Below are positions 418 to 54,294 of a stretch of 64,000 nt of DNA, piece after piece. A program made the position numbers and the translations under genes. Each line of letters starts with the position of its first letter. The stretch's first letter is position 1. The DNA is taken from positions 240,250,001-240,314,000 of the forward strand of contig OZ024742.1 in NCBI GenBank assembly GCA_964016885.1, in the 5' to 3' direction. A model generated the notes under the pieces. That model did not search any database and was not told where the DNA came from. It worked only from the letters and a program-made list of their open reading frames with translations. Origin of the DNA: Eledone cirrhosa. Its lineage: Eukaryota.

Positions 418-427
418 CACCTCCTAC

Positions 428-1570
<1,143 letters not shown>

Positions 1571-5194: not shown

Positions 5195-8100
5195 TAACCT
5201 AATTCATTCAATCTGAAATATGAAGAGATAAGACACTTTCCCATTCTTCTCTGCTAAAATGTATCACTAGAGCTGATTCCAATTTTTCCAGCCATCCATC
5301 TAATCTACGAAGGTATTTTAGCCTACATATTGTCGTTAATATTATGATGTTCCCTGCTGTATTAGCGTTAAATTTTCCCTGCTGTATTAGCGATAAATTT
5401 TCGAGGGTTTCTCTTAGTAGTTTTTTCATGACATTATTATTGTTAATTTTACTGATGTAGTATTAACTTGGATATTTACCATGCGACCCTCAGTTCCTAC
5501 CTCACAATTTCCCTCCCCCCCCCACCCCCACACACCACCATAGTCTATTCGACCAATCAAACCTAGCATGCCATTTCCACTGCTGCTGCTACTACCTGCC
5601 TAACTAACTCTCTCCTCCTCTGGCGCATCCCAACACACCCTGCCATTACCCCACCACCACTGTTCTTCTAGCCCTCAATTTTCCCACCGTTATGGATGGA
5701 TGAGCTGGGAATACACGAGCAACTCTGAATCAATAGATGAAATATGAATCTGCGAGCTACCAAGCACCCACGTGAAGCGCCAACCCAGAGACCCTCCCCT
5801 ACGAGTGTCGACAAATGCCCAAAACTCCGAGTTGGTACCATCAATGTAGGCTCAATGAAAGGAAGAGCAGGAGAAATCGTAGAAATGCTAGAGCGAAAGG
5901 AAGTTGATGTATGCTGTGTGCAAGAGACTAGATGGAGAGGAGGGTCTGCTAGAGTCCTTGTAGGAAAAAGCCAGTGCTACAAATTTTTCTGGGTGGGAAA
6001 TGACGATGGGATGGGTGGTGTAGGTATACTATTAGCTGACAAGTGGGTAGATAAAGTAATCTCAGTGTACAGGGTAAATGCAAGAATCATTAAACTCAGA
6101 CTAGTCCTGAATAAGACAATTACCACAATAATATCAGCTTACGCACCCCAATCGGGGCTGCCAGACGAACTTAAGGATAGGTTTTACGAGTCCCTAATAC
6201 ACACTACTGCTCTAACAGACGACAAGGACTTCCTAATCATTGCAGGAGATTTTAACGGACACGTAGGTAAACACTGCGACGGCTTCAATAGAGTACATGG
6301 AGGCCATGGAGTTGGCACAAGGAATGAGGAAGGATTCAGACTTCTAGAATTCTGCGACGCCAATGACATGTCGATATGTAACACAAACTTTAAAAAACCC
6401 GACAACCACCTGATCACCTATAGATCAGGGGAGCACTCTAGTCAGTTAGATTTTATCCTCATCAGAGGACGTGACAGATGGACGGTCGTAAACACAAAAG
6501 CCTTCCCTAGTGAGGAATGTACATCCCAACATAGCTTAGTTGTCAGCGACCTCACGGTCAGAACTAGACGAGCCCTGAAACAGAGGCCAACCTGGAGAAG
6601 AAAGATCTGGAAGCTGAAAGTCCCCTCAACCAGTAACAGATTTAAAGATATTTTACTCAACGCCTACGACAGTAAAGAAGAACAGATAGAGACATTTAAC
6701 GTAGAAGAGAACTGGGAGTTCCTAAAAAATAACTTACTAGAGGCGACGGATGAGGTTTGTGGCTGGAGTAAGACCTCAAGCAGGAGGAGAGTGACTTGGT
6801 GGTGGAACAATAAGGTAGATGAAGCAGTCAAGGCCAAGAGACAGGCATGGAAAGAATGGAAGAACGGGGGGAGCAGGGTACATTACATAGAGACCAAGAG
6901 GGAAGCTAGGCGACAAGTATACTTAGCTAGGAGGGAAGCAGAGGATAGAAAATTCAAGCATGTTTTACAACGTGAGGACCAGAAACAGGAGGTATTCAAG
7001 ATTGCGAGGCAGTGTGTCAGAGATAGTTGTGATGTCATTGGAGAGAAGTGTATCCGGAATGATAAAGGTGAGCTTGCCCTCACAAGTGCTGAGAAGAAAG
7101 ATGCATGGAAGAGTCATTATGATAGATTACTAAATGAGGAGAATGCATGGGAAGAAGAGACCCTACCCCACGTAGACCCTATAGAGGGACCAGCAGTACA
7201 AGTCAGCGGCAGCGTAGTAAGTAAGGCAATCAGAGATATGAAGATAGGGAAGGCAACCGGTCCATCGGGTATAGCTGCCGAGATGCTGAAGGCATCTGGG
7301 TCTGTAGGTCACACTATAACCACACGTATCGTTAACCAGGTAATACTAGAGGGGGCCATACCAAAAGATTGGTGCAGTAGCATCATTGTCAACTGCTACA
7401 AAGGTAAAGGCGATGCACTAGATAGAGGAAACTATAGAGGTATAAAGTTGATGGACCAGGTCATGAAAGTAACAGAAAGAGTTATAGCACAGCTGATTAG
7501 GGACCGGGTGAATATAGACGAGATGCAATTTGGGTTTGTACCAGGGAAAGGCACCACTGATGCCCTCTTCCTTGTGAGGCAATTACAGGAAAAGTACCTA
7601 GCTAAAAGTAAGCCACTCTACTTGGCATTTGTCGACCTTGAGAAAGCCTTTGACAGAGTTCCACGTGCAGTAATCTGGTGGGCTCTTAGAAAACTAGGAG
7701 TAGATGAATGGCTTGTGAAAGCGGTACAAGCCATGTATAGGGGAGCAGTCAGCAAAGTTAGGATTGGCAATGAGTATAGCGAGGAATTTAGCGTACAGGT
7801 TGGGGTCCACCAGGGCTCTGTTCTTAGCCCTCTCCTGTTCATCATAGTCCTGCAGGCAATAACGGAGGAGTTTAAGACCGGATGCCCATGGGAACTCCTG
7901 TATGCTGATGACCTCGCACTCATAGCTGAATCTATGGTAGAACTAGAGAATAAATTCAAAACCTGGAAGCAGGGACTAGAGAGAAAGGGCCTCAAAGTCA
8001 ACATGACAAAGACTAAGGTCCTTATAAGTAGACGAGAAAACAGAACCCAGATCCCCTCAGGGAAATGGCCTTGCTGAGTATGTAGGAAAGGTGTAGGTAG

Positions 8101-9156
8101 GAACTCCATTCTCTGCCCCAAATGCAAACAATGGGTACACAAGAGATGTAGCGGGATCTCAGGAAGCTTAATTAAGAATGTAGGATTCACATGCAGCAGC
8201 TGTGCTGAAACAGCAAGCAAACAGCCACAGGAAAGAAGTACCACCAATCTCTGGGAGGGCCCTGTAGAAACAGTAGACAGCTTCTGCTACCTAGGTGACC
8301 GAATTAGCAACGGAGGTGGGTGCTCAGAAAGTACAATAACTAGGGTAAGAACGGGATGGAAGAAGTTTAGGGAACTACTACCACTGCTAGCTGCAAAAGG
8401 CTTCTCCCTCAGAATGAAAGGCAGACTGTATGATGCGTGTATCCGAACAGCGATGTTGCATGGTAGTGAGACCTGGGCGCTGAAGGTGGAAGACTTACGT
8501 AGATTAGAGAGAAACGAAGCCTGCATGCTCCGATGGATGTGTAACAGTAATATACGTGAACGACAAAGCATAAAGGAATTGAGAGAGAGACTGAGCATAA
8601 GAGGAATCAAATGCTGCGTGCAGGAGAGGCGATTACGCTGGTATGGACATGTGATGCGTATGAAGGATGACAGCTGCATAAAAAGGTGCAGAGCACTAGA
8701 AGTTGATGGAAACCGCGGAGTGGGGAGACCCAAGATGACTTGGGATGAGGTGATAAAAGCCGACCTTACCCAACTACACCTGTCAAAGACAATGACACAC
8801 GACCGTGACTTCTGGCGTCACGCAGTAATACATGGTACCCGACCTCCCATGGGTACATGCTGAAGCATATAAACACTATGCCCCCCACTCCCTCCACCGC
8901 AAGGTGGTCGTGGAGGTGCCACGGCAAAAAAGCACCCAGCCCACACTGTAAAGTGGACGTGTAGGCGCCACGAAAAAGCACCCAGCACTCACTGTAAATG
9001 AGGTTGGTGTTAGGAAGGGCATCCAGCTGTAGAAATCAAGCCAGATCAGTTCCTGTATGAGCAAGGCATGGACAGCCGACCAGACACTGCCCACAACAGG
9101 ACAACCCGTCTAACCCATGCTAGCGTGGAAGAACGGACGTAAAACGGTGATGATGA
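5155..9156 (+). mobile_element. Near full-length RTE-clade LINE (5' leader, APE-RT-PHD-like ORF, 3' UTR, (GAT)n tail)
   Basis: ORF motifs as in the next feature; 3' UTR shared with many fragments in the window; ends ggacgtaaaacggtgatgatga then (TA)n; the 5' boundary is inferred. Confidence 0.9.
5744..8863 (+). pseudogene. RTE ORF (AP endonuclease + reverse transcriptase + Cys-rich PHD-like finger) broken by one in-frame TGA at 8075-8077
   Basis: GTINVGSM, VQETRW, SAYAPQ, AGDFNGHVG, SQHSLV (APE); FVDLEKAFDRV, GVHQGSVLSP, LLYADDL (RT); the frame continues VCRKGVGRNSILCPKC... into ORF 8414-8863. Confidence 0.93.
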
Positions 9157-10935
<1,779 letters not shown>

Positions 10936-10969
10936 TAAGATCAAAAGATGGTTAAAGGAGTTCCATGTA

Positions 10970-11036
10970 TTTTATTATGCGCATTTCAAAAACAAACATC
11001 ATCATGCAATAATATTTGTGTTTTCATCAGATAAAA
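10970..11036 (-). ncRNA. Type I hammerhead ribozyme at the PLE 3' end
   Basis: Minus strand TTTTAT-CTGATGA-[aaacacaaat...atgtttgttttt]-GAAA-TGCGCA-TA-ATAAAA; stem I TTTTAT/ATAAAA; palindromic stem III TGCGCA; AUA triplet. Confidence 0.8.
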
Positions 11037-11380
11037 CAGGAGAACATGATATGAAGGCTAAAAAACACTTGTGGATAGTGCAGTTTTAAATCAACATATG
11101 AAAAGTGGTTTTAGATTGATGTGTGATATTGGGAAAAATATTTTATTTAGAGAGGCGGGGGGGCGGGGTGGAAAGGATGAAAAAGGGGAGGAGATGAGAG
11201 TGAAGGTGGAGAGGGAGAGATGGGTGATAGAGAGAAAGAGATAGTTTTTATAACTGAGAAAAGATATATTGTTTTACATAGAGAGGTTGAGAACCGTTGG
11301 AAGATAATGTATAAATTAAAAGAATTTGAAAATTAACGAAAGGAAAAGTATGTACGAGGAAAGATAGGGAGTTTATGTAT

Positions 11381-11843
11381 GAAGATAGAGAGAAAAAATA
11401 ATAATTGCGGATGAATATTCTAACGTCAAAAAAGTGAATGTTGATAAGTATTGTGGCAATTTCAAAATTAACGAAGAGAAAAAATTATTAAGGTTTGTGT
11501 GTAGAAGGATTTGAGAAAAATAATGTGAAGTTAAAGTTTGTATATTGAAGGAATTGATAATATGTGCGAAGAAAGAATTAATATGTATTAAAAAATTATT
11601 AAGGTTTGTGTATTAGATGATTTGAGAAAAATAATGTGAAGTTAAGGTTTGTATATTGAAGGAGTTGATAATATGTGCGAAGAAAGAGTTAATATGTATT
11701 AAGAATGAGTTCGTTGATGGGGAGAAAAAAAAAAAAAATAATAATAATAATAATAAATTAAGGATGAAATTGAGATTAAAAAGTTTTATGATAGAGAGAA
11801 AAAATAATAATAATTGCGGATGAATATTCTAACGTCAAAAAAA
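11381..11843. repeat. Internal duplications in the PLE 3' UTR
   Basis: ~110 bp tandem pair (~11480-11590 / 11591-11702); ~50 bp dispersed pair gatagagagaaaaaataat..taacgtcaaaaaa at ~11384 and ~11790. Confidence 0.85.
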
Positions 11844-12021
11844 CAAATGTATATGTTATGAAGGATTTTACAAGGTGAAGATAGAATGAGGGTAATGAGT
11901 AAACAAGTATTATAGAGTGTATAATGCCCTTTGAAGTAAGGTAGGAAGATGGGTATATTTTAAAGAGGTGTATGTATATGTGCCTTTGAGAAAAGATTCT
12001 AAATTGATAAAGAATTGAATA

Positions 12022-14406
12022 TTAGCTGTATACTTTGTGAAAAGTCCTATGGAATTTATGCAGGCAGATAGAAAACAAATCTGTACGTCTATTTATTATA
12101 GAATCTAGATTAGAGATAATGGTAAATTTTTCATTTAGGCAGAGATTACAGATTTTAGATAGAGAGCTGTTCAAGTATGTGAGGATGCAGAAGAAACCTT
12201 CTTCCAAAAGATGGTATATTTAATGTTTTTGTCTTTCAAGGACCATATGAGTTCCGCGAGAGCCGTGTTGGTTCTTTTAAGTTTGTATTTAAAAGATGAA
12301 TGGTGATTATAGAGACGAGCTTTAAAAGAGGTGGAAGTGGAGCCAAAATAGGTGAAGGAATTGGTGCTAGTTATAACTTTACATTCATAAATTAAGTTTT
12401 TATCAAGACAATGGTTGTTGAGAGGACATTTATTTTTAATGCGGCAGTTGCAATTAGAGAGATTATTAATGAGTGACCTAGTGTTATCTATAGAAGGAAT
12501 TGGATTGGAGAAGTTGTTTGCAATAGGAATAATAGGAATAATAGTTTCTTGATTTAGAGTTGGATTATGAACATTTAGCGAAGTTGTGTTTGACGTTGTA
12601 TTTGGGTTTACAGAAGTTAGCCTAGGGTTTACAATGACGTCGGGAGTACTATTACTATTATTATGAAATTCAATGTTGGAAGGAACATTTAGTATTTTAT
12701 TGTTGTGTTTAGAGATGATGTTGGAAATATTGGAGGATGTAGAATAAGAAAATTTGATGGTGTGTTTGTTAAATATTTTACTATAGATATGTAAGGGAGG
12801 GAAGCATTTATTTAAGGCACTAAAAAATAATTTAGGAATATTGTTATTAATAGAGATGGAGAAAGGAGCATTATACCAGATTATGTTTTTGTATCTAGGT
12901 CTTTTATTAAAATTATTGGAATGATCATGATTAATTATTCTACTGTAAGTTTTTCTAGAATTTGTTTCTTTACTATATTTGATTTTATCTGGATAGCCGG
13001 CTTTAGAAAGTGCGTTATTATAGTAATTGGCGTTAGCATCAAAGATGTTTTTATTAGAAGATATGTTAGATATTCTTTTTCCAATATTACTAACTATAGC
13101 ATTCTTGATATTGGTAGGATGGTTAGATTTAAAGTTAACATAATTTAGGTTCTCATTGTTTTTATGGTAAGGGTAATATAGGCCAGTGTCAAGATTAAGA
13201 GATACATCCAAGAAATTAGCTAGTTTGATACTATTATCAAATTCAATTTTTAGGTTATGTTGGTTAAAGAGATTACGTATATTGTTCTTAATAATATTAA
13301 GGTTAACTATATTGCAATTTAAGATAGTAAAGAGTCCATCGCCACGATAAATTCCACCGCGAAGTTGAGGAATTTTCCGACTCAAAGAGTTCAAAATAAA
13401 GATACCAATTAAATCAGTCAATTGGGATGAATCAGATGCTCCCATTGTGATGTCGAAGTTGTTAGAGGTATCGGCTCTGGTCCAATATTCGTTGTTGAAC
13501 TCTAGGATGGTTTTACGTGCGGTGAGGATGATGTGAAGTTCATCTGTGGTGATGTCAGAATATTTAAGTGCGAAAGATAGAGCATTATTGAGAAGTGAAG
13601 GCGAAATGGAGGAATAGTAGCTGGCAATATCAAATTGAATAAATTTTAGTTTGTTTTTATTATCCAATTTGTTGAACCAGCCAATCACTTCAGAAGTACC
13701 AAACCATAAATTTAGGTTCAAAGAAGAGCAATTAGAACTAACCTGTGGGATAATTCTATCCAAGATGGCTTTACTAACAACCCCCAGATCAGATTTAGAG
13801 GGGGCGATTAATCTAACAGGTAGTTCAGTGCGAAAATTGTTTTTGTGATCCTTGAGATTTATCCTCGGAGTTCTTGGGAGGAATGGTTCGGTCTTTTTTT
13901 CAATGCCAAGTTTTGACATAATCTCAGAGGCTTCAAGGTTTATGTATTCTAAATTTTGATGGTTGGTTTTACGATACTTTTTCCTAAGTTCCTTTAGGAT
14001 AAGGTTGTTATAATTATCCTTGGAAATACCATATAAGTTATTGGTTTTGTCAGAGTGGACTAAAACATTTTTTGAGGAATTTAGGTTAGAAATTGTGTAA
14101 GGGTATCTCTTGAATTTTGTAAGGGTATCTCTTGAATTTAAGATTTTTTATTATTTGAGTTAATTCTTCCTCGAATTGTACTAGATTTTTGTTGGAAGGA
14201 GGATTTCGTCTAGAAATAAATAGATGATCGAGGAAGTTATGTTCTTTGGTATGGAAGTTCCCTTTTAGGCGCTGGTCATAGAAATAGGCTGTCCATCTAA
14301 GTCTTCTTACGAAGGAGTCAGTTTTTTCAATAAGAAGTTTGGTGAATTCAGATTTACCAGGTATAGGAATGTCTTTAGTTGAATTGGTTATGTTGTAATA
14401 ATCCAT
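12022..14406 (-). pseudogene. PLE polyprotein (RT + CxCx5C linker + GIY-YIG endonuclease), two frameshifts and a catalytic-site lesion
   Basis: STKDIPIP..FVRRLRW N-terminus; HSDKTNNLY; QFDIASYYSSI (motif A); ITMGASDSSQLTDLIG (B); GIYRGDGL (C, expected YRDDG); NFLDV; CNCRIKNKCPLNNHC; LIYECK..YFGST..FKARLYNHHSSF; CNLCLNEK. A 22-bp tandem duplication at 14096-14139 causes frameshift 1; frameshift 2 is near 12180. Confidence 0.9.
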
Positions 14407-14484
14407 GTTGTAGAAGAAGAGGTAAAAGACCATCAAAAGGTATCCAATATGAGAGTAAGCGCTCAACCGTTAAGGAGCAAGTTA

Positions 14485-14619
14485 ATGTAGGAGGTGAGTT
14501 TTATTGTAGTACAATAAAGCAATGCAGATATCGGATAAGAAGCACTCTACAAACTGTAGAGTGCTTCTTATCCGATATCTGCATTGCTTTATTGTACTAC
14601 AATAAAACTCACCTCCTAC

Positions 14620-14621
<2 letters not shown>
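14485..14621. repeat. Perfect hairpin capping the PLE 5' end (67-bp arms, AAC loop)
   Basis: 14485-14551 is the exact reverse complement of 14555-14621. Confidence 0.95.
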
Positions 14622-15088: not shown

Positions 15089-15430
15089 ACGTGGGAAAGT
15101 AAAAATCGGAGAATAGACCGTTAAAACATGTTTATTTAAAATATCACCTACGTACGTTTCGCCCAGTTGGGCTTCTTCTGAGAAGCCCAACTGGGCGAAA
15201 CGTACGTAGGTGATATTTTAAATAAACATGTTTTAACGGTCTATTCTCAGATTTTTACTTTACCACGTGCTTACGCTCTGCTAACTCTCTAGCCCACTAA
15301 ATATTAACACTTCGAATATTTAATACTGCCGGCACTAGTATCGAGCACCTTTGGCATACGCTACTTGGCAAATAACTATATGTATCACCTATCCCCCCTT
15401 TTTTTCTCTTTCTCGATACGTAAATACTAT
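15089..15430 (+). mobile_element. Hairpin-plus-tail module in (TA)n containing the 3' part of a hammerhead
   Basis: 88-bp arms (15089-15176 / 15181-15268, about 2 mismatches); each arm reads GAA-gcccaactgggc-GAAA-CGTACG-TA-ggtga; ~160 nt tail on the right. Confidence 0.8.
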
Positions 15431-15454
15431 ATAAATATATATATATATATAAAT

Positions 15455-18664: not shown

Positions 18665-19953
18665 AACTACTAGACAGCTCACATGTGGACGTGATATATC
18701 TTGACTTTGCGAAGGCCTTTGACAAGGTCGACCACGGAATGATATGTCACAAACTACACGGACTCAGCATAACTGGAAAAGTAGGTGAGTGGCTGCATGG
18801 CTTCCTAAGGGACAGAAGCCAGGCAGTCGCAGCAAATGGGGCCCTCTCGAGGGAAACACCGATAACAAGTGGGGTGCCCCAGGGGACAGTCCTGGGACCA
18901 CTACTGTTTCTGGTGGCTCTGTCGGACATACCCTCTGTGGTGCATGCAACAACATCCCTCACTAGCTATGCTGATGACACTAAGGTAACACAGGCAATCA
19001 AAAACCCGGCTGACGCTGCCCTTTTACAGCAGGATCTGGATGCCATATACAGATGGGCGGAAGAAAACAACATGCAGTTTAATGCTGGCAAATTCCAAGC
19101 CCTACAATACAAACCTGCAAACACAAATATAGTGGAACACAGCTACACAGGACCAGGAGGGACCGATATCCCCGTGTCAAAATCGATACGAGACCTGGGC
19201 ATAGACATGAGCGATGATGCATCTTTTTCTTCACACATCATGAAGGTGGCGACAACATGTAGACGATTCGCTGGCTGGATCTTGAGGACTTTCCTTACAA
19301 GAGATCGAGACACCATGTTGACACTGTGGAGGACTTTTGTCCTAAGCCGCCTGGACTACTGCTCCCAGCTGTGGCCACCCCATAGTGTCAAACTAACCAC
19401 GGAGCTTGAGGCAATCCAGCGAAGCTACACCAAGAGGATTGCCAAGATGAGGGAGACAAGCTACTGGGAGAGGCTGAAGGAACTGAACCTCTACTCCTTG
19501 GAGCGAAGACGGGAGAGATACGCAGTGATCTACATATGGAAAATCCTGGAGGGACTAGCACCAAACTTTGGCATTGGGAGCTGGACCAACCGTCGAACAG
19601 GACGTCACTGTGTGGTGCCAAAGGTCCCGTCTTCCACATCTAGAATAAGGAGCAGGTATTGCAATAGCCTGGGATTCAAGGGCCCTCAACTCTTCAACAG
19701 GCTGCCGAGGCATCTGAGAGACTTGCATGACGTGGAGGTGGATGTCTTTAAGAAACATCTCGACACCTTGTTATCCAGGATCCCGGATGAGCCCACAGCA
19801 AGACACGAGGGAAACCTAAGGCCAGCAGCAACAAACGCCCTCCTACACCAGTGGCCAACCTATACAGGCTGGAGATAAAATGTGTAGCAACAAGGGCGGT
19901 GCCCCAGCATGGCCTCAGCCGGATGGCTGAAACAGGTAAAAGAGTAAAAGAGT
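18665..19953 (+). mobile_element. 5'-truncated CR1/L2-group LINE (open RT frame 18685-19878)
   Basis: [56 protein letters not shown]; tail ggctgaaacaggtaaaagagtaaaagag. Confidence 0.9.
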
Positions 19954-19970
19954 ATATATATATATATATA

Positions 19971-20068
19971 TAGAGGTTATATTTATAAATAAATATTGAC
20001 ATACCCTTAAAAAATGCAACCATTCTGGTTGGAATCTCCTGGGAGATTTCAACCAGAATGGTTGCATT
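19971..20068 (-). mobile_element. Mini hairpin-plus-tail module in (TA)n
   Basis: 27-bp arms 20013-20039 / 20042-20068 (one mismatch); ~40 nt tail on the left. Confidence 0.7.
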
Positions 20069-34295: not shown

Positions 34296-34381
34296 ACCTT
34301 CTGACGAGAGTTTTTCTTTTCAATGGAGGCCCGCAAGGACTATCTATTTATTTTTGAGACTCGAAACCGTTCGGTAAAGGT
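34296..34381 (+). ncRNA. Type I hammerhead ribozyme with an enlarged stem II, in a ~230 bp (TA)n-flanked element (34223-34452)
   Basis: ACCTT-CTGACGA-GAGT[~47 nt]ACTC-GAAA-CC gttc GG-TA-AAGGT; all three stems pair; GUA triplet; upstream hairpin actcgg..ccgagt at 34263-34288. Confidence 0.82.
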
Positions 34382-34825: not shown

Positions 34826-34874
34826 AAACTTTAAAAGAATATTTCCAGCCTAGCCTTCTGTTGTTTTTAAATGA

Positions 34875-34952
<78 letters not shown>

Positions 34953-34999
34953 ATTTAAAAACAACAGAAGGCTAGACTGGAAATATTCTTTTAAAGTTT
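34826..34999. repeat. 50-bp inverted repeat enclosing a pure (TA)n
   Basis: 34826-34875 vs 34950-34999, one mismatch. Confidence 0.85.
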
Positions 35000-36383
35000 T
35001 GATGTTGCAAAAAGACTATATGTATTTCAATGGCCAAGTTACATCATCCGATCATGACATATGACTTTGGTGATGTCATCTTGCAAAATTAGTTAATAAT
35101 AGGACTATAGCAAACACAAACAGAGAAGAAAGAATAGATTTGATTTGGAGATAGTCTGCCAATTTGGTGTTATTGTTGTGGCAAACCATCTCTGGATATA
35201 TATATTTATTCTTTATCATTAACATTAATGTAAAAATTAATAGTTATATTTTGTTTAGAGCAAGGCATCAGCAGGTGAAAGTCTAGACCTGACCTTATTC
35301 TATGTTTGGTATCTTTCACTGGCACTTGTTGGATTGTTATGCTGTAGGACATATTGTGAACAACTGGTATTGTCATGGCATTTTGTGACAACTAGCATGC
35401 ATGCATACACACGCACACACGCACACACGTATATATACACACACCTTTATAATGATCTTTTAAACAGTTTCCATCTACCAAATTCACTCACAAGTAGGGT
35501 TGGACTTTCACCTGCTGAAATTTGAGTCCCTTCTCTAAAAAAATTATTATTTTTATATTAATGTTAATGATAAAGAATAAATAAATAATATATATATAAT
35601 TTTTGATAATTTTAGTGTTAAAGAATAAAAACTAATGATAAATGAAAATATATTTTTAAAAAGGCCTCCGAGTGTGTGAGGCCCTAATCTTTGGCTTATT
35701 TAGATTATAGGTAAGTCCAGCACTGCTCACAAGGCATTGGTTGGCTTGAGGTTGTAGGTGAAGATACTTGCCTAAAGTGCCACACATTGGGATAGAGCCC
35801 AAAACTGCATGGCTGTAGAGCAAACTTCTTAACTGCACAGCCATGCTTGTGCCTCCAAGTTATGCCTGTCCCTGTTTACATATCAAAATATACATTAACA
35901 AAAAGTCATTCTGCAATAATAAAGATTCAGACCCCCCCCCCTCCAATCATAATTAATAATTATTGTGTCAACATAATTCAGATATTCATTTAGAGGTCTT
36001 TGCTTCTCATTAGTTTACATGGGGTAAATTTTTCCAAATGATTTTGTGTTACAGTGCATGTAAAAGAAAATCATTCTTTATTGATATAATTATAATTAGT
36101 TCTCTGACAGTGCGACTACTAATTACAATAATGATAATACATTAATTATTCATTATGCAGCATCATAATTATTAAAATAAGGTGTCATGATTAGCATCTA
36201 GCTATAAACCATTGCCTGCATGGAAAAATGGACGTAAAAGGAATAAAATTGAATGAATGAGTCTGTTTAATAGTGTGATAACTAGTTAAGTAAGTAGTAC
36301 ATAATTAGTTATATGTGACTAGTACATAACCTATTGTTTTATGGATGAAATAAGTAATATTTCATTTTTTCACCAAACTTTAA

Positions 36384-39672: not shown

Positions 39673-41603
39673 AATAATAATAATAATAATGAAATTATTG
39701 TGTAAAGTGCTCAGGTGCACTACAACTCGTCAATATAGTACATAGAATAATACACAAATGCCAGGGAAGTACATGTTTGTATGTGTTAGCTGTAGTGTTG
39801 GCGGATCTCGGGAAGCATGGAGGCCTTAAAGGATGCAGCGTCTCGACAGCTAACAACTGATGCAGGTAGTTTGTTCCATGCTTCAGCAACTCTGAGCGTG
39901 AAAAAATGTTTCCGAAAGTCATGGGAACTGTGCTGTTTTCTTACTTTGTGGGCATGTCCACGTGTGTTAGACACATGGAAATCGAAAAGGCACTCAGGGT
40001 TGTTGTTGGCAACATGGTTAACAATTTTGTGGGTGTTTACCAAGTCAGTTGCCAGGCGTCGGAGCTTCAATGAATCCATGCCCAGGGAAGCAAGGCGATC
40101 AGAGTATGGTAGATGCCTGATGGAGGGTATTCGCTTGGTTGCACGTCTCTGAACAGTTTCCAGGCGGTCAATGTCCTGAGCAAGATAGGGGTTCCAGACT
40201 GGTGATGCAAATTCTAAGTGTGGTCGCACCATAGCTGTATACAGCCTTAAATAGATATCTGGAGAGCGGCTGACAAAGGTCTTGCTGAGTGATGCTAAGA
40301 CACCCTCGGCCCTCTTGACAATTTTAGAGACGTGCCTCGTCCAACGCAAATCGCTGCTGACCGTAATGCCCAGGTCACGTTCACAGGAAGACTTCTTGAT
40401 ATTAGTGCTGTGGAGGGAATATGTGGACGCTGGGTTTTTACTCCCAAAATGCATGGTGGTGCACTTGTCCACAGCTAGCTTGAGTTGCCAGTCTGAGATC
40501 CATTGTTGCATTGTGTCCAGGTCAGACTGCAAGCAAGATCTATAGTGTTCAGGATCTGTCCTTTTTATCTCAAGGTACAGCTTGATGTCGTCTGCGTACT
40601 TTAGTACTGTGGCATTCCTTAAGTTGGCATCTATGTCATTAATATATGCCACAAACAAAAGGGGGCCAAGAACAGATCCCTGAGGTACACCAGATGACAT
40701 CTCATATGGTGAGGAATGCTGTCCCAGAACCGTGACTACCTCTCTTCGACTGAGAATGAAGGACTTCAACCAGTTAAAAAGATCATCCTTCACACCCATT
40801 GCAGAGAGTTTTGCCATAAGCCTTTTGTGCGGCACAGAATTGAAGGCCTTCGCAAAGTCAAGGTAAACAACATCCACCCATGAGCCGCCATCAGTGATCC
40901 GGGTGATGTCCTCAAGAAACTCTATAAGTTGATCACAGCAGCTGGAGTTGGGGATAAATCCAAATTGCGAAGGCCGGATAAGACTGTGAGAGCTCCAGAA
41001 GTTCCAAAGTGTTTCTCTGACACAGGATTCCATCAGTTTGGCGATGCAACTAGTAAGACTGACTGGACGATAGTTCACAGGTGATGTGCGGTCACCCTTT
41101 TTGAACAGAGGAATTACACTGGCAGTTTTCCACTGTTCTGGAGTAGCACTGTTGTTCAGACAGAATTGGAAGAAGCGTGATAACTGGCGTAGAAGGAAGT
41201 ACCCACCACGTTTAAGAAGCAGGTACGTAACACCATCAAGACCAGGAGAGGCATGGTTGCGTTTATTTTTTAGGTGACGTCGCAGCATTGCAGGTGTAAA
41301 TTCCATGGTTGTAATAGAGTCCGGTGTCATAGGTGGTGGAGATGGTACACTCTGGTCTTCAATGGTGAAAATGCCTGCATAGCATTCAGCAATGAGCTCT
41401 GCGCATTCCTTGGGGTCGTCAGTAACCTGGCTTGTGTGGGGATTGCGAAGAGGACCAACTGGAGAGTGAGGCCTCTGCTTTGAGTGAACATACTTCCAGA
41501 ACACCTTACTGTCAGGGCTGGTTGCTATGCGCTGCTCAAATTGAAGCACTGCCTTTTTTGTCACCTGTTTGAGGTGGTTGGACGATCTATTTCGCCTCTT
41601 CCT
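39673..41603 (-). mobile_element. 5'-truncated CR1-group LINE (open frame 39786-41564), antisense in C2CD5 intron 2
   Basis: [76 protein letters not shown]; (ATT)n tail. Confidence 0.92.
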
Positions 41604-41889
41604 ATTAATATATCATTGAGTGACCATTCTTAGCTGCTTTACTGTATAGAATAGTAGGTGATAAGAATTTAGTTTTGCCATTACTGTATAGAATGGTGGT
41701 AAGAATTTAGTGCTTTACCAATGAAATGGCATATAATCTCATCATCATCACCATCACTGTTTTACATGTTCCATATTGGCACAGGTTGGAGATGTTGTCA
41801 CATTCAAGCTAGGTAGGTCAGATGACTACATTTTGTTTGTGCATTCCAGTTTGGATTGGTTTCTAGAGCTGAATGCCTTTCTTAGCACC

Positions 41890-42563: not shown

Positions 42564-43711
42564 GTAAGATCTTAAAAAAAGATGTTAAATTCCACAATTT
42601 ATTTCATTTAGTATTAGTATATCTTTAGTGGATGTAGCATGGCCAGATGGTTAAGAAGTTCACTTCACAATTATTAGGTCTGGGATTCGATTCATCTGTG
42701 TGACATATTGGGCAACTGTTATTTACCACCATAGCCTTGAGTCCACCCATGCCCTACCAGTGAACTTGGTGAGACAGAAGCTGGAAGTCTGTCAGATGAA
42801 CGGTACCTGTAATTCAAAAGGTCAACCATGTAATTCAAAAGGTCACACAGATAGACTGTGTTACTTTGAATCTCCCTGAGAATTACATTAAGGATATACA
42901 TGTCTGTGGAATGCTCAGCCACTTACACAACCATTTTACAAGCAACTGGAACACTCATTGTTGAAACTGACAGTGCTCCATTCCATAATATAATTAGACA
43001 TTAGATTGACAAAGTAAGCACTGTAGAGATAAGCTGTCAGTGAACTGAGTTCATCGTTCAGTTTTTATTTCTGTACAGTCATTTCACTTATATGGCTAAT
43101 GCTCTTCAGAAAAGCTTCATTTGAACAATTTTCATTTTTCCTCTTTCTCTCTCCCCCAATTCTCAAGCTTTATATCTACGTAACAATTGTTGTTGTTTTA
43201 AATGTAGTGGAAATAGCTGAGATAGTATGGTTCTTTCTAGACTAAATAAATGCATTACAGCATTTAGTTTAGTAATAGAGTACTGAGTACAAAACAGCAC
43301 TATAACTGCATCACACTAAAAAAAATGAAAGTCTTTAGTTTACTGCAAATTTTCACAACAATCTGTCCACTAGTAAAGATTCTATATCTATTTGAATTAA
43401 CAAACCTGTTCTTAGATATTTTCTCCTAAATCATTTCAGGCTATAAAGAGTTTCAATCCAATCAAATTAACTTTGCCTTTCACCTCTCTGACTCTTTGAT
43501 AATAGTATCAGTTATTGTTATCAGTCATTGATAACAATATCTTAATATTGATAAAATATTACTCACAAAAATTTGAGCAAGTATCTTCTACCATAGCCTC
43601 AGGTTGTCCAATGTCTAAGCATAGATATGTAGTTAAGACATTTTTTCACAATCATGAGGTCCCATTTTCTTTATATATACAATATAGATATGTAAGTAGA
43701 ATCATATCTAT

Positions 43712-43753
<42 letters not shown>

Positions 43754-43757
<4 letters not shown>

Positions 43758-43794
43758 ATCAAAAGATGGTTAAAAGAGAATAAAACTCACCTCC

Positions 43795-43799
<5 letters not shown>
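43754..43799. mobile_element. 46-bp ends-only footprint of the 10936-14621 PLE
   Basis: 43754-43774 = 10936-10956 and 43779-43799 = 14601-14621, joined by agag; (TA)n on both sides. Confidence 0.9.
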
Positions 43800-43853
<54 letters not shown>

Positions 43854-43899
43854 GAAAGGTATAGAAAACATTGTAGCAAAAAGCCAACAGTATTCCATA

Positions 43900-43937
<38 letters not shown>

Positions 43938-43975: not shown

Positions 43976-44101
43976 TATTTATTAAAATAACAGATTAAAG
44001 TTTAAGCAAAGAATCGCTGCTTTCACCCTTAACGGGATCTTCTGAAGATCCCGTTAAGGGTGAAAGCAGGGATTTTAGTCTTCAATTTTATTATTATTAC
44101 T
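43976..44101. mobile_element. Hairpin module centred on a hammerhead core
   Basis: 26-bp arms 44017-44042 / 44044-44069; CTGAAGA-tcccgttaagggt-GAAA; same termini as 53854-53980. Confidence 0.78.
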
Positions 44102-44187: not shown

Positions 44188-47100
44188 TCATCATCATCAT
44201 CATCATCATCAACGTTTAACGTCCGTGTTCCACGCTTGCATGGGTTTGGACGGGGGTAGTCCCACTTGAGGCAAGAGTGATTGTCTTGCTCGCATAGGAC
44301 TGTCTGGCAGGTTTTCTACAGTTGGATGCCCTTCCTAACACCAACCACATTTACAGTGTGGGTCTGGGAGGTTTTTACCGTGTTGCCTACACGGCCACAT
44401 TACAGCGTGGACTGTGTGTTTTTTTGTCGTGACACCTACACGATCTCATTTGTTTCGGCCTGGATGGCGCGGCACCAACATAACTTTACATAGAACGGGG
44501 TGGTGTGGATGGGGTGGGGGTGGTGGCGGGACGGGGTGTAGTTTGTTAGAGATGCCTACTGGCAAGGCGGGTCTTCTCTGTTACTGAGTACCGCCAAAGG
44601 TCACGGTCCAGTGACATTGTCTTGGAGAGGTGTAAGTGTGTGAGGTCGGAGTTTATCAGCTCATCCCATGTTTTTCTAGGTCTGCCTATTCCGTGGCTAC
44701 CGTCTATCTTTATTGCCCTGCACTTTGTAATACAGCTATCGACTTTCATGCGCATCACGTGTCCATACCAACGCAGCCTTCTCTCGAGTAAACAACATCT
44801 GATCCCTCTTATCTCTAATTTTTTCCTTAGTTCGTTTATGCTTTGCCGTTCACGTATATTACTGTTACACATCCAGCGGAGCATGCAAGCTTCGTTCCTC
44901 TCTAGTCTGCGTATATCCTCTGCACACAATGCCCAGGTCTCACTACCATGCAACATTGCTGTTCGTATGCAGGCATCGTACAACCTGCCTTTCATTTTTA
45001 GGGAGAACCCTTTAGCAGCTAATAGTGGTATAAGCTCTCTGAACTTTTTCCAACCAGTTCTGACTCTAGCTACAGTACTTTCAGAGCACCCTCCCCCACT
45101 GCTGATTTTATCGCCCAGGTAACGGAAGCTGTCCACTATTTCTATAGAACCCTCTGCGCAATTGAAAGAGCTAGTATTTTGTGGGCACTTGCTGCTACTT
45201 ATTGCACCAGAACACCGGCCACATGTAAAGTCTATGTTCTTAGTTAGCTTACCTGTGATCCCACTACATCTTTTATGCACCCATACTTTGCATTTAGGAC
45301 ATAAGATGGAGTTTCTACCTACGCCTTTCCTACATACCGAGCACGACCATTTCCCAGAAGGGACCGCCGCCTTGTTTTCTTTCCTACAAACTAGAACTTT
45401 GGTCTTAGCCAGGTTAATTTTAAGTCCTTTTGACTCTAGGCCGTGCTTCCATGTTTGGAATTTCTTCTCTAGCTCGGCCATTGATTCCGCTATGAGTGTC
45501 AGGTCGTCTGCGTATAGGAGTTCCCATGGGCAGCCTGTCTTGAACTCCTCTGTTATAGCCTGAAGGGCAATAATAAATAGTAGGGGGCTGAGAACAGAGC
45601 CCTGATGGACGCCAACTTTTACGCTAAACTCTTCACTATATTCGTTGTTAATTCTAACCTTGCTGACTGTTTCTTTATACATGGCTTGTATAGCCCTCAC
45701 AAGCCATTCGTCAACGCCTAGTTTTCTAAGAGCCCACCAGATAATGGAGCGGGGGACTCTGTCGAAGGCTTTCTCCAGGTCGACAAAAGCTAAGTAGAGG
45801 GGTTTACCTTTAGCTAGGTACTTCTCCTGTAGTTGTCGTACTATGAAAAGAGCGTCTGTGGTGCTTTTGCCTGACACAAACCCGAACTGCATTTCATCTA
45901 GATCAATTCTCTCTCTGATTAGTTGCGCTATTACTTTTTCCGTGACCTTCATGACCTGGTCGATTAATTTAATGCCTCTATAGTTACTCCTATCTAGGGC
46001 GTCTCCTTTACCCTTATAACAGTTAACGATGATGCTGCTATGCCAGTCCTTCGGAACAACCCCATTCTGTACGACTTGGTTAACTATGCGGGTGACCATG
46101 GTGTGTCCCACCGTGCCAGATGCCTTCAGCATCTCAGCAACTATTTCCGAAGGCCCAGCCGCCTTACCAGTCTTCATATCCTTGATTGCCTTACTTATTA
46201 TACTCCCCTCGACTAACACTGCTGGTCCCTCTATCGGGTCGATATGGGGGAGACTGTCTTTCTCCCATTTATTCTCCTCATTTAGTAGCCTTTCATAGTG
46301 ACACTTCCAAGCTACCTTCTTATCAGTGTCGGTGATGGCAAGTATGCCATCATCGTTAAGTACACACTTCTCCCCGACAATATCACGGTTTTCCTTGACG
46401 CATTGCCTGGCAATCCTGAACACCTCACGTTTTTGGTCATCGCGTTGTAGAACATGCTTGAACTTTCTTTCCTCAGCTTCCCTTCTTGCTAAGTACACTT
46501 CTCTCGTAGCTTCCCTCCTGGCCACTTGATAGTCTACTCTACTTCCCCCATCCCGCCATACTTTCCAAGCCTGCTTTTTGGCCTTAATTGACCCCTCCAC
46601 CCTATTGTTCCACCACCATGTTACTCTCCTCCTGCCTACAGGCCTGCTCCAGCCACAGACTTCGTCTGTCGCCAACAGCAGGTTTGCTTTCAGAAATTTC
46701 CACTGTCCCTCTATATTGTCCGATTCTAGATGCTCTTCCTTACTGTCGAAAGCATCAAGTAATATGCTTTGAAATTTATTTCTGGCTGTGGGGTCCTTTA
46801 GTTTCCATATTTTCCTCCTGAGTATAGTCCTCTTCTGCTGTCGGGTACGTCTCGTCCTGACTATGAGGTCGCTAATTATCAGTCTATGTTGGGAGGTGCA
46901 TTCTTCATGGGGGAGGGATTTAGTGTTTACAACAGACACTCTGTCACGTCTTCTGGTAAGGATATAATCTACCTGGCTTGTGTGTTCCCCGGATCTATAG
47001 GTAATCAGGTGATTGTCACGTTTTTTGAAGTTAGTGTTACAGATAGTTAGGTTATTTGCATCACAGTATTCCAGGATTCTGGAGCCTTCCTCATTTCTAG

Positions 47101-47694
47101 TACCAAACCCATAGCCTCCATGGATTTCGTCGTAGCCGTCACAATGTTGTCCAACGTGACCATTTAGGTCGCCTGCAATAATTATATAGTCACTGTCAGA
47201 TATTTGGGAGGTAGTTAGCAACAGTGTCTCATAGAATCTGTCTTTTATAGTGCCGGGCAGTCCGGATTGGGGTGCGTACGCAGATATTACTGTCACCGTA
47301 GTTCTATTGAGGACAAGTCTTATTTTAATTATTCTGTCGTTCACTCTATTTACGTCTATTATCTTATCTGCCCACTTTTCTGCTACCATGATTCCTACTC
47401 CACCCAGCCCATCGTCGTTTCCCACCCAGAAAAGCTTATAACATCGTTTTTTACCCTCAATGAATCTAGCAGACCCACCCCTCCACCTGGTCTCTTGAAT
47501 ACAACAAACATCGACCTCCTTACGTTCAAGCATTTCTACAACCTCGTTAGCGCGACCCTTTAGGGTGCCTACATTTATGGTACCAACTCTGAAGTTTTGG
47601 GTTGCGTTTGGAGGGTGGGGGTGGTGGGGGGCGGGAGGAGATAGGGTTATGTTAGCCATCCGCGGACGAAACAAAGAGGAGTGCTCGCATTCTC

Positions 47695-53853: not shown

Positions 53854-53980
53854 TATTTATTAAAATAAAAGATTAATCTGTTATTTTAATAAATATTTGC
53901 TCTAGGGTTCTTATATATTTCATATATATTTATCCTTATCGAGCCCTCTTTGGATTTTAGTCTTCACATTTATTACTATT
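53854..53980 (+). mobile_element. Hairpin-plus-tail module, same family as 43976-44101
   Basis: tatttattaaaataaaagatt/aatctgttattttaataaata hairpin, then a tail ending ggattttagtcttcacatttattact. Confidence 0.75.
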
Positions 53981-54294
53981 ATTATTATTATTATTGGCAG
54001 TATCGGTAGAGGGTCGGACGCCATGCTTTGACGCATAGAGTTACTGCCCTTGCCATTCTGAGTTCAAATCCCGCCAAGGTTAACTTTGCCTTGCATCCTT
54101 ATGGGGTCGATAAAATAAAGTACCAGTAATACACTGGGTAATTGCTGGTCTTGTGCCAAAAGTAGAAACAATTATTATTATCCCGCCGAGGTTAACTTTG
54201 CTTTCATCCTTACGGGGTCGATAAAATAAAGCACCAGTAATACACTGGGATAATTGCTGGCCTTGTGCCAAATGTAGAAACAATTATATATATA

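What the first reader, a model, noticed from the sequence alone, without database searches (positions are those of the whole stretch)
43754..43799. 46-bp insertion made only of the two termini of the 3.7 kb PLE
Seen: 21 nt identical to the PLE 3' terminus (10936-10956) plus agag plus 21 nt identical to the inverted 5' cap (14601-14621), with (TA)n on each side. The cap terminus also appears at 418-429. Inference: both ends are fixed priming points. The two sides of a break in (TA)n are each extended from a different place on the element RNA (the 3' end, and an internal ...cctacat site in the leader) and then joined. This is a two-ended, telomerase-reminiscent integration whose smallest product is an ends-only scar.
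Basis: partly seen in the sequence, partly recalled or inferred. Interest (0 to 1): 0.75.

Follow-up and report, generated by a model that had tools for sequence, protein, structure and literature searches.

The report
Ends-only scar of Penelope-like retrotransposon
This 46-base insert in a TA repeat consists only of the two tips of a nearby Penelope-like jumping gene, and is likely the smallest product of a known but unexplained insertion pattern in which both sides of a DNA cut are probably extended from the element's RNA and then joined.

Summary
43754-43799 holds the 3' terminus (site A) and the inverted cap terminus (site B) of a broken 3.7-kb Hydra-clade Penelope-like element (PLE), between (TA)n runs. 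Two corrections. (1) The 4-nt 'linker' is probably templated, because the A side also reads 25 nt with one transition. (2) A and B are probably not distant sites. Public contigs and reads join the 3' end directly to the leader, which puts B about 85 nt downstream of A, the known PLE 'tail'. The same data show other A-to-B joints with different inner breakpoints, and both tips far more abundant than the ORF start. Best reading: twin or dual target-priming from two fixed RT start sites, with the truncated cDNAs joined (0.65). Post-insertion deletion cannot be excluded for this single locus (0.2). Inverted 5' copies, one-sided tails, (TA)n targeting and two-site, both-strand priming in vitro are published. 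The useful addition is a non-palindromic minimal joint, which fold-back self-priming cannot make directly. The copy number of this exact junction is untested. This scan proposed the same two-armed model before on other DNA of this genome and another.

The parts
43754..43778 (-). Left arm of the scar: copy of the PLE 3' terminus (site A); 21 nt exact, 25 nt with one G-to-A difference at 43775
43779..43799 (+). Right arm of the scar: 21 nt ending at site B (tail end), head-to-head with the left arm
43716..43755 (.). (TA)n target, left side (last 2 nt shared with the A end)
43798..43850 (.). (TA)n target, right side (first 2 nt shared with the B end)
10936..14621 (-). 3,686-bp Hydra-clade PLE copy between TA-rich arrays; reference for both termini
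12025..14408 (-). RT plus C-terminal GIY-YIG-type endonuclease ORF, broken into three frames (22-nt tandem duplication from 14096; frameshift near 12175); core RT motif reads YRGDG where relatives have YRDDG
10968..11038 (-). Type I hammerhead ribozyme motif in the 3' UTR; predicted cut between 10976 and 10975, 40 nt before site A
   Evidence: motif search; activity untested
14547..14621 (+). Inverted 5' cap, 75 nt ending at site B; forms a palindrome (14485-14621, 67-nt perfect arms, 3-nt loop) with the leader and shares 5 nt (14547-14551) with it
418..429 (+). Third copy of the site B end, between an assembly gap and a TA-rich array; rest of that copy unseen

Best explanation
The insert is the two termini of a Hydra-clade Penelope-like retrotransposon set head-to-head in a TA repeat, likely made when the element's enzyme cut both strands, copied 21-25 bases of RNA onto each cut end from two fixed start sites, and host repair joined the two short copies. 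Shown: the composition of the insert, the fixed ends, the TA flanks and the head-to-head orientation. Also shown, in public contigs and reads of related samples: the 3' end runs on into the leader, so site B lies about 85 nt downstream of site A in tandem copies. Inferred: GIY-YIG nicking of both strands of (TA)n, priming with only 2-3 nt of pairing, one cDNA from A and one from B (one RNA or two cannot be told), early termination or resection, and blunt or microhomology joining. The 3.7-kb copy would be the same reaction with a 3.6-kb A arm and a 75-nt B arm annealed through 5 nt.
For: (1) Same outer ends, different inner joints. In the window: the scar (25+21 nt) and the 3.7-kb copy (about 3,616+75 nt). 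In one search, 7 of the 15 joints shown (40 in all, 25 not shown) skip from 11089-11099 to 14580-14600, and table 5c adds 10994 to 14565. Overlap at these joints is 0-3 letters; 2 joints show 1-2 extra letters. (2) Depth falls from the A end towards the ORF start and jumps again at the cap. X1: 1,486,538 in the first bin, 2,597 at 14257-14379, 395,769 in the last bin. X4: 673 / 7.4 / 125. X6: 3,358 / 0 / 1,583. (3) Tandem joint 10936 to 14547 on opposite strands: 3 contigs in X4, and 1,221 reads from 29 starts in X17. The same upstream loose end lies before 14547 in X1 (25 contigs), X4 and X6. (4) That upstream stretch shows a natural 5-bp hairpin with loop AAC in the RNA sense. The window copy carries the loop in the cap's orientation, which excludes fold-back of the long A-primed cDNA and fits two cDNAs annealed at 5 nt (my inference). 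(5) The scar's arms are not complementary, so fold-back self-priming cannot produce it directly (sequence). (6) In vitro, a lizard PLE protein nicks and extends both strands and starts RT at two adjacent internal sites that delimit the tail (PMC11167929). (7) Other short head-to-head inserts at TA arrays in the window have a one-sided extension: 163 nt at 15089-15431 and 40 nt at 19973-20068.
Against: A single locus cannot distinguish birth as a 46-mer from later deletion. The 7 clustered joints all fall within 11099/14580 as outer bounds, and 6 of them are marked 'between: not known'. Four have contig depth 91-203, against 8-17 for six of the eight X1 pieces listed. They may therefore be one or a few amplified junctions rather than 7 events, leaving about 4 distinct junction classes in all. 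Most have a shorter side under 30 letters and were laid at 90% likeness, which the tool flags as less reliable. Summed contig depth is not copy number. The palindrome draws contigs to both arms, and many B ends may be ordinary 3' tails rather than inverted caps. X17's peaks at both ends come largely from what looks like one RAD locus. The runs do not carry several of the window copy's own alleles, so they are relatives, not the source. Loop orientation does not exclude self-priming on an antisense RNA (PMC3846280) for the palindromic copy. In vitro no strand difference in start site was seen, so a strict A-on-one-side, B-on-the-other rule is not explained.
Confidence: 0.65

Rival explanations
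1. A longer capped copy, like the 3.7-kb one, inserted first, by whatever mechanism makes PLE inverted caps (including antisense self-priming). It later lost its interior by a double-strand break and end joining, leaving both tips.
For: It gives exactly this anatomy. Palindromes such as 14485-14621 are break-prone (general knowledge). With very many copies in the genome (depth profile), rare tip-sparing deletions are expected. Internal microhomology deletions of PLE copies are described (PMC3846280).
Against: The steady fall in depth from the 3' end plus a cap-end depth about 17-150 times that of the ORF start (X4, X1) is the pattern of truncation at birth. It would need most copies to have lost their middles. 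The B arms at the joints seen are all short (21-75 nt).
Confidence: 0.2
2. The 46-mer is one copy of a small derivative that arose once and spread by duplication or remobilisation.
For: Four A-to-B joints in X1 have depth 91-203, above the 8-17 of most listed pieces, so some junctions appear multi-copy.
Against: The scar junction differs from all 8 A-to-B joints seen. It has no terminal inverted repeats and holds its two priming sites on opposite strands, so no simple route copies it whole. Only 1 copy lies in the 64-kb window.
Confidence: 0.08
3. Assembly artefact: the two ends of an unresolved longer copy were fused without a gap.
For: Palindromic, TA-flanked repeats assemble badly, and another B end sits at the edge of an N gap (418-429). 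The single mismatch lies near the junction.
Against: This assembly marks its gap with 200 N. Short A-to-B joints exist in independent public contigs and reads.
Confidence: 0.05

Closest known systems
Endonuclease-bearing PLE insertions with an inverted 5'-truncated copy and a one-sided 30-40-bp tail (Craig et al. 2021, PMC8557442; Arkhipova et al. 2013, PMC3846280)
   Same: Head-to-head arms, two alternative fixed termini, palindrome at the inverted junction of the long copy, no visible target-site duplication in (TA)n.
   Different: The arms are cut down to 21-25 nt and do not overlap on the template, so there is no palindrome and no pLTR. The tail is about 85 nt. Those papers ascribe the structure to endonuclease resolution or antisense self-priming and call the mechanism open.
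Hydra clade of PLEs, e.g. [quoted passage not shown]
   Same: DKT and CxCx5C motifs, CxxC and CxH around the E and N residues, 3' hammerhead, (TA)n target, no upstream pLTR.
   Different: A distinct family: the leader and hammerhead differ by eye from Hydra-1_Obim. It is 3.7 kb with a 1.1-kb 3' UTR, against generally under 3 kb, and has RWT for RWK.
PAc (Anolis Poseidon PLE) in vitro; Frangieh et al. 2024, PMC11167929
   Same: Both strands nicked and extended, AT-rich target, two RT start sites delimiting the tail.
   Different: Different clade. The sites are about 34 nt apart inside the ORF, here about 85 nt apart and upstream of the ORF. In the parts and passages read, the paper does not connect both-strand extension to inverted insertions.
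L1 twin priming and dual priming (Meyer et al. 2010, PMC2837659)
   Same: Two cDNAs primed from the two nicked strands, inverted arms, inner joint with little or no microhomology, sometimes very short arms.
   Different: In L1 the second site is chosen by annealing to the target overhang, so it varies, and a poly(A) tail and target-site duplications are present. Here the second site is fixed and the enzyme is a PLE RT with a GIY-YIG-type nuclease.

Membership tests
Hydra-clade PLE (parent element) | Single ORF, RT followed by C-terminal GIY-YIG-type endonuclease | tested here: met
   Translation and alignment to 6 of 32 homologues; by-eye match to Hydra rows of Fig. S7. The ORF is broken in this copy. 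The Pfam scan gave 0 families.
Hydra-clade PLE (parent element) | DKG motif changed to DKT | tested here: met
   HSDKTNN against the definition
Hydra-clade PLE (parent element) | RWK motif near the N-terminus | tested here: inconclusive
   RLRWTA aligns to RMRWKA of homologues; K is T here
Hydra-clade PLE (parent element) | Linker CxCX5C; CxxC and CxH around the conserved E and N | tested here: met
   CNCRIKNKC; CNLCLNEK ... INRR ... ICLH
Hydra-clade PLE (parent element) | Canonical hammerhead ribozyme near the 3' end | tested here: met
   Core at 11030 on the minus strand, stem I 8 bp, stem III 4 bp. The Rfam scan did not report it; cleavage untested.
Hydra-clade PLE (parent element) | Insertion into (TA)n | tested here: met
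   All 5 termini in the window abut TA-rich arrays
Hydra-clade PLE (parent element) | Generally under 3 kb | tested here: not met
   3,686 bp; the paper gives this as a tendency only
Hydra-clade PLE (parent element) | Placement in the Hydra clade on an RT tree; absence of the CCHH finger | not tested
   No tree built; the reference sequences were seen only as supplement text
PLE inverted-copy-plus-tail insertion | Inverted 5'-truncated copy at the 5' end | tested here: met
   Cap 14547-14621; right arm of the scar
PLE inverted-copy-plus-tail insertion | Tail: second terminus lies just downstream of the first in the tandem unit | tested here: met
   Joint 10936 to 14547 and shared loose end in 4 of 4 runs; about 85 nt rather than 30-40
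PLE inverted-copy-plus-tail insertion | Direct pLTR upstream of the ORF | tested here: not met
   No leader/3'-end match by blastn. Local alignment score 65 against a shuffle mean of 67; 209 of 300 shuffles reached it. Also absent in Hydra-1_Obim.
Twin or dual priming product (L1 type) | Two inverted arms whose template 3' ends both face the target | tested here: met
Twin or dual priming product (L1 type) | Target-site duplication | not testable with these tools
   Hidden in (TA)n; needs the empty allele
Twin or dual priming product (L1 type) | Second site set by annealing to the target overhang (variable) | tested here: not met
   Site B is identical in 3 of 3 window copies and shares only 2 nt with the target
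MITE / DNA-transposon derivative | Terminal inverted repeats | tested here: not met
   The two ends are unrelated sequences
Telomerase-like repeat addition | Iterative copying of one short template | tested here: not met
   One copy of each arm only

The most novel reading that the evidence does not exclude
Two-ended priming is the obligate insertion route of these PLEs. A dimeric enzyme holds one tandem or circular RNA with a dedicated start site for each side of the break, A for one strand and B, one tail downstream, for the other, so every insertion is two RNA-templated end extensions stitched together. Ribozyme-cut RNA, with only 40 nt upstream of A, would feed a large class of tiny ends-only scars. 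These mark and repair breaks in (TA)n, a two-sided relative of telomerase-type end healing.
Probability: 0.3. Interest if true: 0.7.

Novelty: new variant of a known kind. Interest (0 to 1): 0.42.

Why it matters
How PLEs make inverted repeats and one-sided tails is called open in PMC8557442, and PMC3846280 explains them by self-priming. A head-to-head product whose arms share no template cannot come directly from fold-back. If such scars are born short, they decide between self-priming and two-sided target priming, and link the both-strand, two-site chemistry seen in vitro (PMC11167929) to genomic structure. Counting arm lengths and A/B pairing genome-wide is a cheap, direct test. Such 40-60-bp inserts in microsatellites would also escape repeat annotation. 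As a single locus it is a minor remnant of a known element class.

Tried and rejected
Pfam: 0 families for the 658-aa piece. Rfam at E up to 1: 5 matches, all below gathering score and all on the palindrome (miRNA-like hairpin artefacts). Sequencing runs: no RNA holder listed, which says nothing on expression. Related loci in metagenome contigs: 151 pattern matches, none confirmed. Look-alike stretches in other genomes of this scan: none. Leader as a diverged copy of the 3' end: rejected, not above shuffles. RNA hairpins as the cause of the breakpoint clusters: not supported; 11070-11140 folds at z +0.37 and the cap hairpin at z -1.2. The first, strict hammerhead search missed the 3' motif; the relaxed one found 3 candidates in the window. 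Non-templated linker: disfavoured. Fold-back of the long cDNA as source of the cap: rejected on loop orientation. MITE and telomerase-type iteration: rejected on anatomy. Nematis-clade assignment (first guess from recall): replaced by Hydra. Literature searches returned no paper stating twin priming for PLE inverted ends or describing ends-only scars. Evgen'ev and Arkhipova 2005 and Arkhipova 2006 were not read and may hold such a model; supplements other than those of PMC8557442 were not seen.

Full report
Observation. The insert is as described. 43754-43774 is identical to 10936-10956 and 43779-43799 to 14601-14621; the last 12 letters of the second end recur at 418-429 beside the N gap. Chance expectation in the window is below 1e-6 for each 21-mer. 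Alternating A/T runs of 38 and 51 letters abut it. The four middle letters match the element's next four at 3 of 4 positions, with one G-to-A transition (P about 0.04-0.05). G>A is among the commonest differences between family copies. The simplest reading is 25 + 21 nt joined bluntly; a non-templated linker is possible but not needed.

The parent element. 10936-14621 (3,686 bp, minus strand) encodes an RT followed by a GIY-YIG-type nuclease, broken into three frames. The protein search gave 32 relatives among 7,996 candidates scored, at 30-40% identity and nearly all unnamed; six were aligned. The motifs DKT, CxCX5C, and CxxC and CxH around E and N match the definition of the Hydra clade (PMC8557442 section 11). 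The rows of its Fig. S7 match by eye; RWK is RWT here, and no tree was built. A type I hammerhead motif lies in the 3' UTR with its predicted cut 40 nt before the 3' end. The 5' end is a palindrome with 67-nt perfect arms and a 3-nt loop. There is no pLTR: the leader does not resemble the 3' end beyond shuffles. [quoted passage not shown]

Family evidence. No genome was held. Instead, contigs of three public runs (X1, X4, X6) and raw RAD reads of one (X17), 4 of the 19 runs listed, were laid on the element. These are relatives: several alleles of the window's copy have no support in them. Three results matter.

First, depth is highest at the 3' end, decays towards the ORF start and jumps at the cap. 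X1 gives 1,486,538, 2,597 and 395,769; X4 gives 673, 7.4 and 125; X6 gives 3,358, 0 and 1,583. Summed contig depth is not copy number, and X17's peaks look like one RAD locus.

Second, the 3' end joins directly to the leader. The joint 10936 to 14547 is seen in 3 X4 contigs and in 1,221 X17 reads from 29 starts, and the same upstream letters lie loose before 14547 in X1 (25 contigs), X4 and X6. The letters between were not shown, so the distance is approximate. Site B therefore lies about 85 nt downstream of site A in tandem copies. That is the PLE tail, which in the lizard element PAc is the stretch between two RT start sites (PMC11167929).

Third, other head-to-head A-to-B joints exist. Seven of the 15 joints shown (of 40) skip from 11089-11099 to 14580-14600, and table 5c adds 10994 to 14565. 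Against a simple count: the seven are nested within one pair of bounds and six have unknown letters between. Most have under 30 letters on the short side, and four have depth 91-203 where six of eight listed X1 pieces have 8-17. They may be one or a few amplified junctions. With the scar and the 3.7-kb copy, about four junction classes share the two ends. The other, 'unique and due to deletion', stays open, because the copy number and read support of the exact 46-bp junction were not established.

Mechanism. The upstream letters show that the leader has a natural 5-bp hairpin with loop AAC in the RNA sense. In the window's copy the loop reads AAC on the plus strand, which is the cap's orientation. 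Fold-back of the long A-primed cDNA would have left the opposite loop, so that route is excluded (inference). Two cDNAs annealed through the 5 shared letters (14547-14551) fit. Self-priming on an antisense RNA, proposed in PMC3846280, also fits this palindrome, but it cannot directly give the scar, whose arms are not complementary. In vitro, PAc nicks and extends both strands of AT-rich DNA from two adjacent internal sites and is predicted to be a dimer. L1 twin and dual priming give inverted arms, sometimes very short and joined without microhomology (PMC2837659). I therefore favour two-sided priming from A and B with early termination or resection and end joining (0.65), over later deletion (0.2), an amplified derivative (0.08) and misassembly (0.05). 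The nicking, priming and joining steps are inferred; one RNA versus two cannot be told.

Context in the window. A hairpin scan listed 13 non-TA inverted repeats. Several lie at TA arrays with a one-sided extension: 15089-15431 (163 nt, with a hammerhead 3' half at its centre, seen by eye), 19973-20068 (40 nt) and 34826-35195 (about 197 nt). A further family has the same left end and the same right end at 43979-44100 and 53857-53995 (19 of 20 and 27 of 30 letters alike). These fit the known one-sided tail rule but were not tested further.

Comparison with what is known. Inverted 5'-truncated copies, one-sided tails and (TA)n targeting are published, and their mechanism is called unresolved (PMC8557442 passages, sections 11 and 15; PMC8969392 passages). 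Five literature searches found no statement of twin priming for PLEs or of ends-only scars; two older reviews outside what I read may hold one. Papers seen: PMC11167929 parts 1-2 of 4 plus passages; PMC8557442 passages, two sections, supplement part 2 of 59 and two supplement searches; PMC3846280, PMC2837659, PMC8969392 and bioRxiv 10.64898/2026.07.22.740005 passages only. Earlier notes of this scan propose the same two-armed, two-fixed-site model for retrozymes and a Hydra element in this genome and another. I read them after forming my view and count them as no support.

Verdict. The insert is real in the assembly and made of a known element's two known kinds of terminus. It is a limiting, non-palindromic case that bears on an open mechanistic question, but as one locus it cannot settle it. 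New variant of a known kind; interest 0.42.

Noticed in passing
window 10936-10975 (X1 contig, table 5c): One contig (depth 12.4) holds an A arm that stops at 10975, the first base after the predicted hammerhead cut, followed by three letters and another A end. It may be run-off on ribozyme-cut RNA; single observation in AT-rich sequence.
   Followed up: partly
window 15089-15431: Head-to-head insert in (TA)n with 88-nt arms, centred in a hammerhead core, and a 163-nt one-sided extension; a different PLE or retrozyme family.
   Followed up: partly
window 43979-44100 and 53857-53995: Two inserts of one family share the same left and right ends. One is centred on a hammerhead-like core; the other begins with a 36-nt palindrome of the terminus followed by about 90-100 nt to the second end.
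   Followed up: partly
window 19973-20068: 27-nt-arm palindrome between TA runs with a 40-nt extension on the left only.
   Followed up: partly
window 34826-35195: Inverted 50-nt arms separated by a 73-nt TA run, the right arm extending about 197 nt further.
   Followed up: no
window 35206-35587: 382-bp segment between short TA runs with 32-35-nt inverted ends; MITE or two-armed PLE insert not distinguished.
   Followed up: no
window 43672-43723 and 43851-43900: The scar sits in a cluster of tiny inserts in one TA region: a hairpin with 13 non-TA pairs on its left and a 50-nt island on its right with no other match in the window.
   Followed up: partly
window 34301-34381 (+) and 52892-52847 (-): Two further hammerhead-like motifs from the relaxed scan.
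   Followed up: no
window 5741-8863, 44546-47692, 39786-41612, 18667-19878: Long RT-bearing ORFs that look like LINEs (RTE-like and CR1/L2-like by recalled motifs, not tested); 44546-47692 is an open 1,048-aa frame.
   Followed up: no
window 434-1570 and 9166-10924: Very long TA arrays with interspersed extra A (1,137 and 1,759 nt) lie next to PLE termini; whether insertion promotes TA expansion is untested, and similar arrays occur elsewhere in the window.
   Followed up: no
window 11479-11705 and 11384-11441 / 11790-11850: Internal direct repeats (116 nt at 92%, about 60 nt at 90%) lengthen the 3' UTR; one search shows joints skipping 283-305 nt here, so UTR length varies in the family.
   Followed up: no
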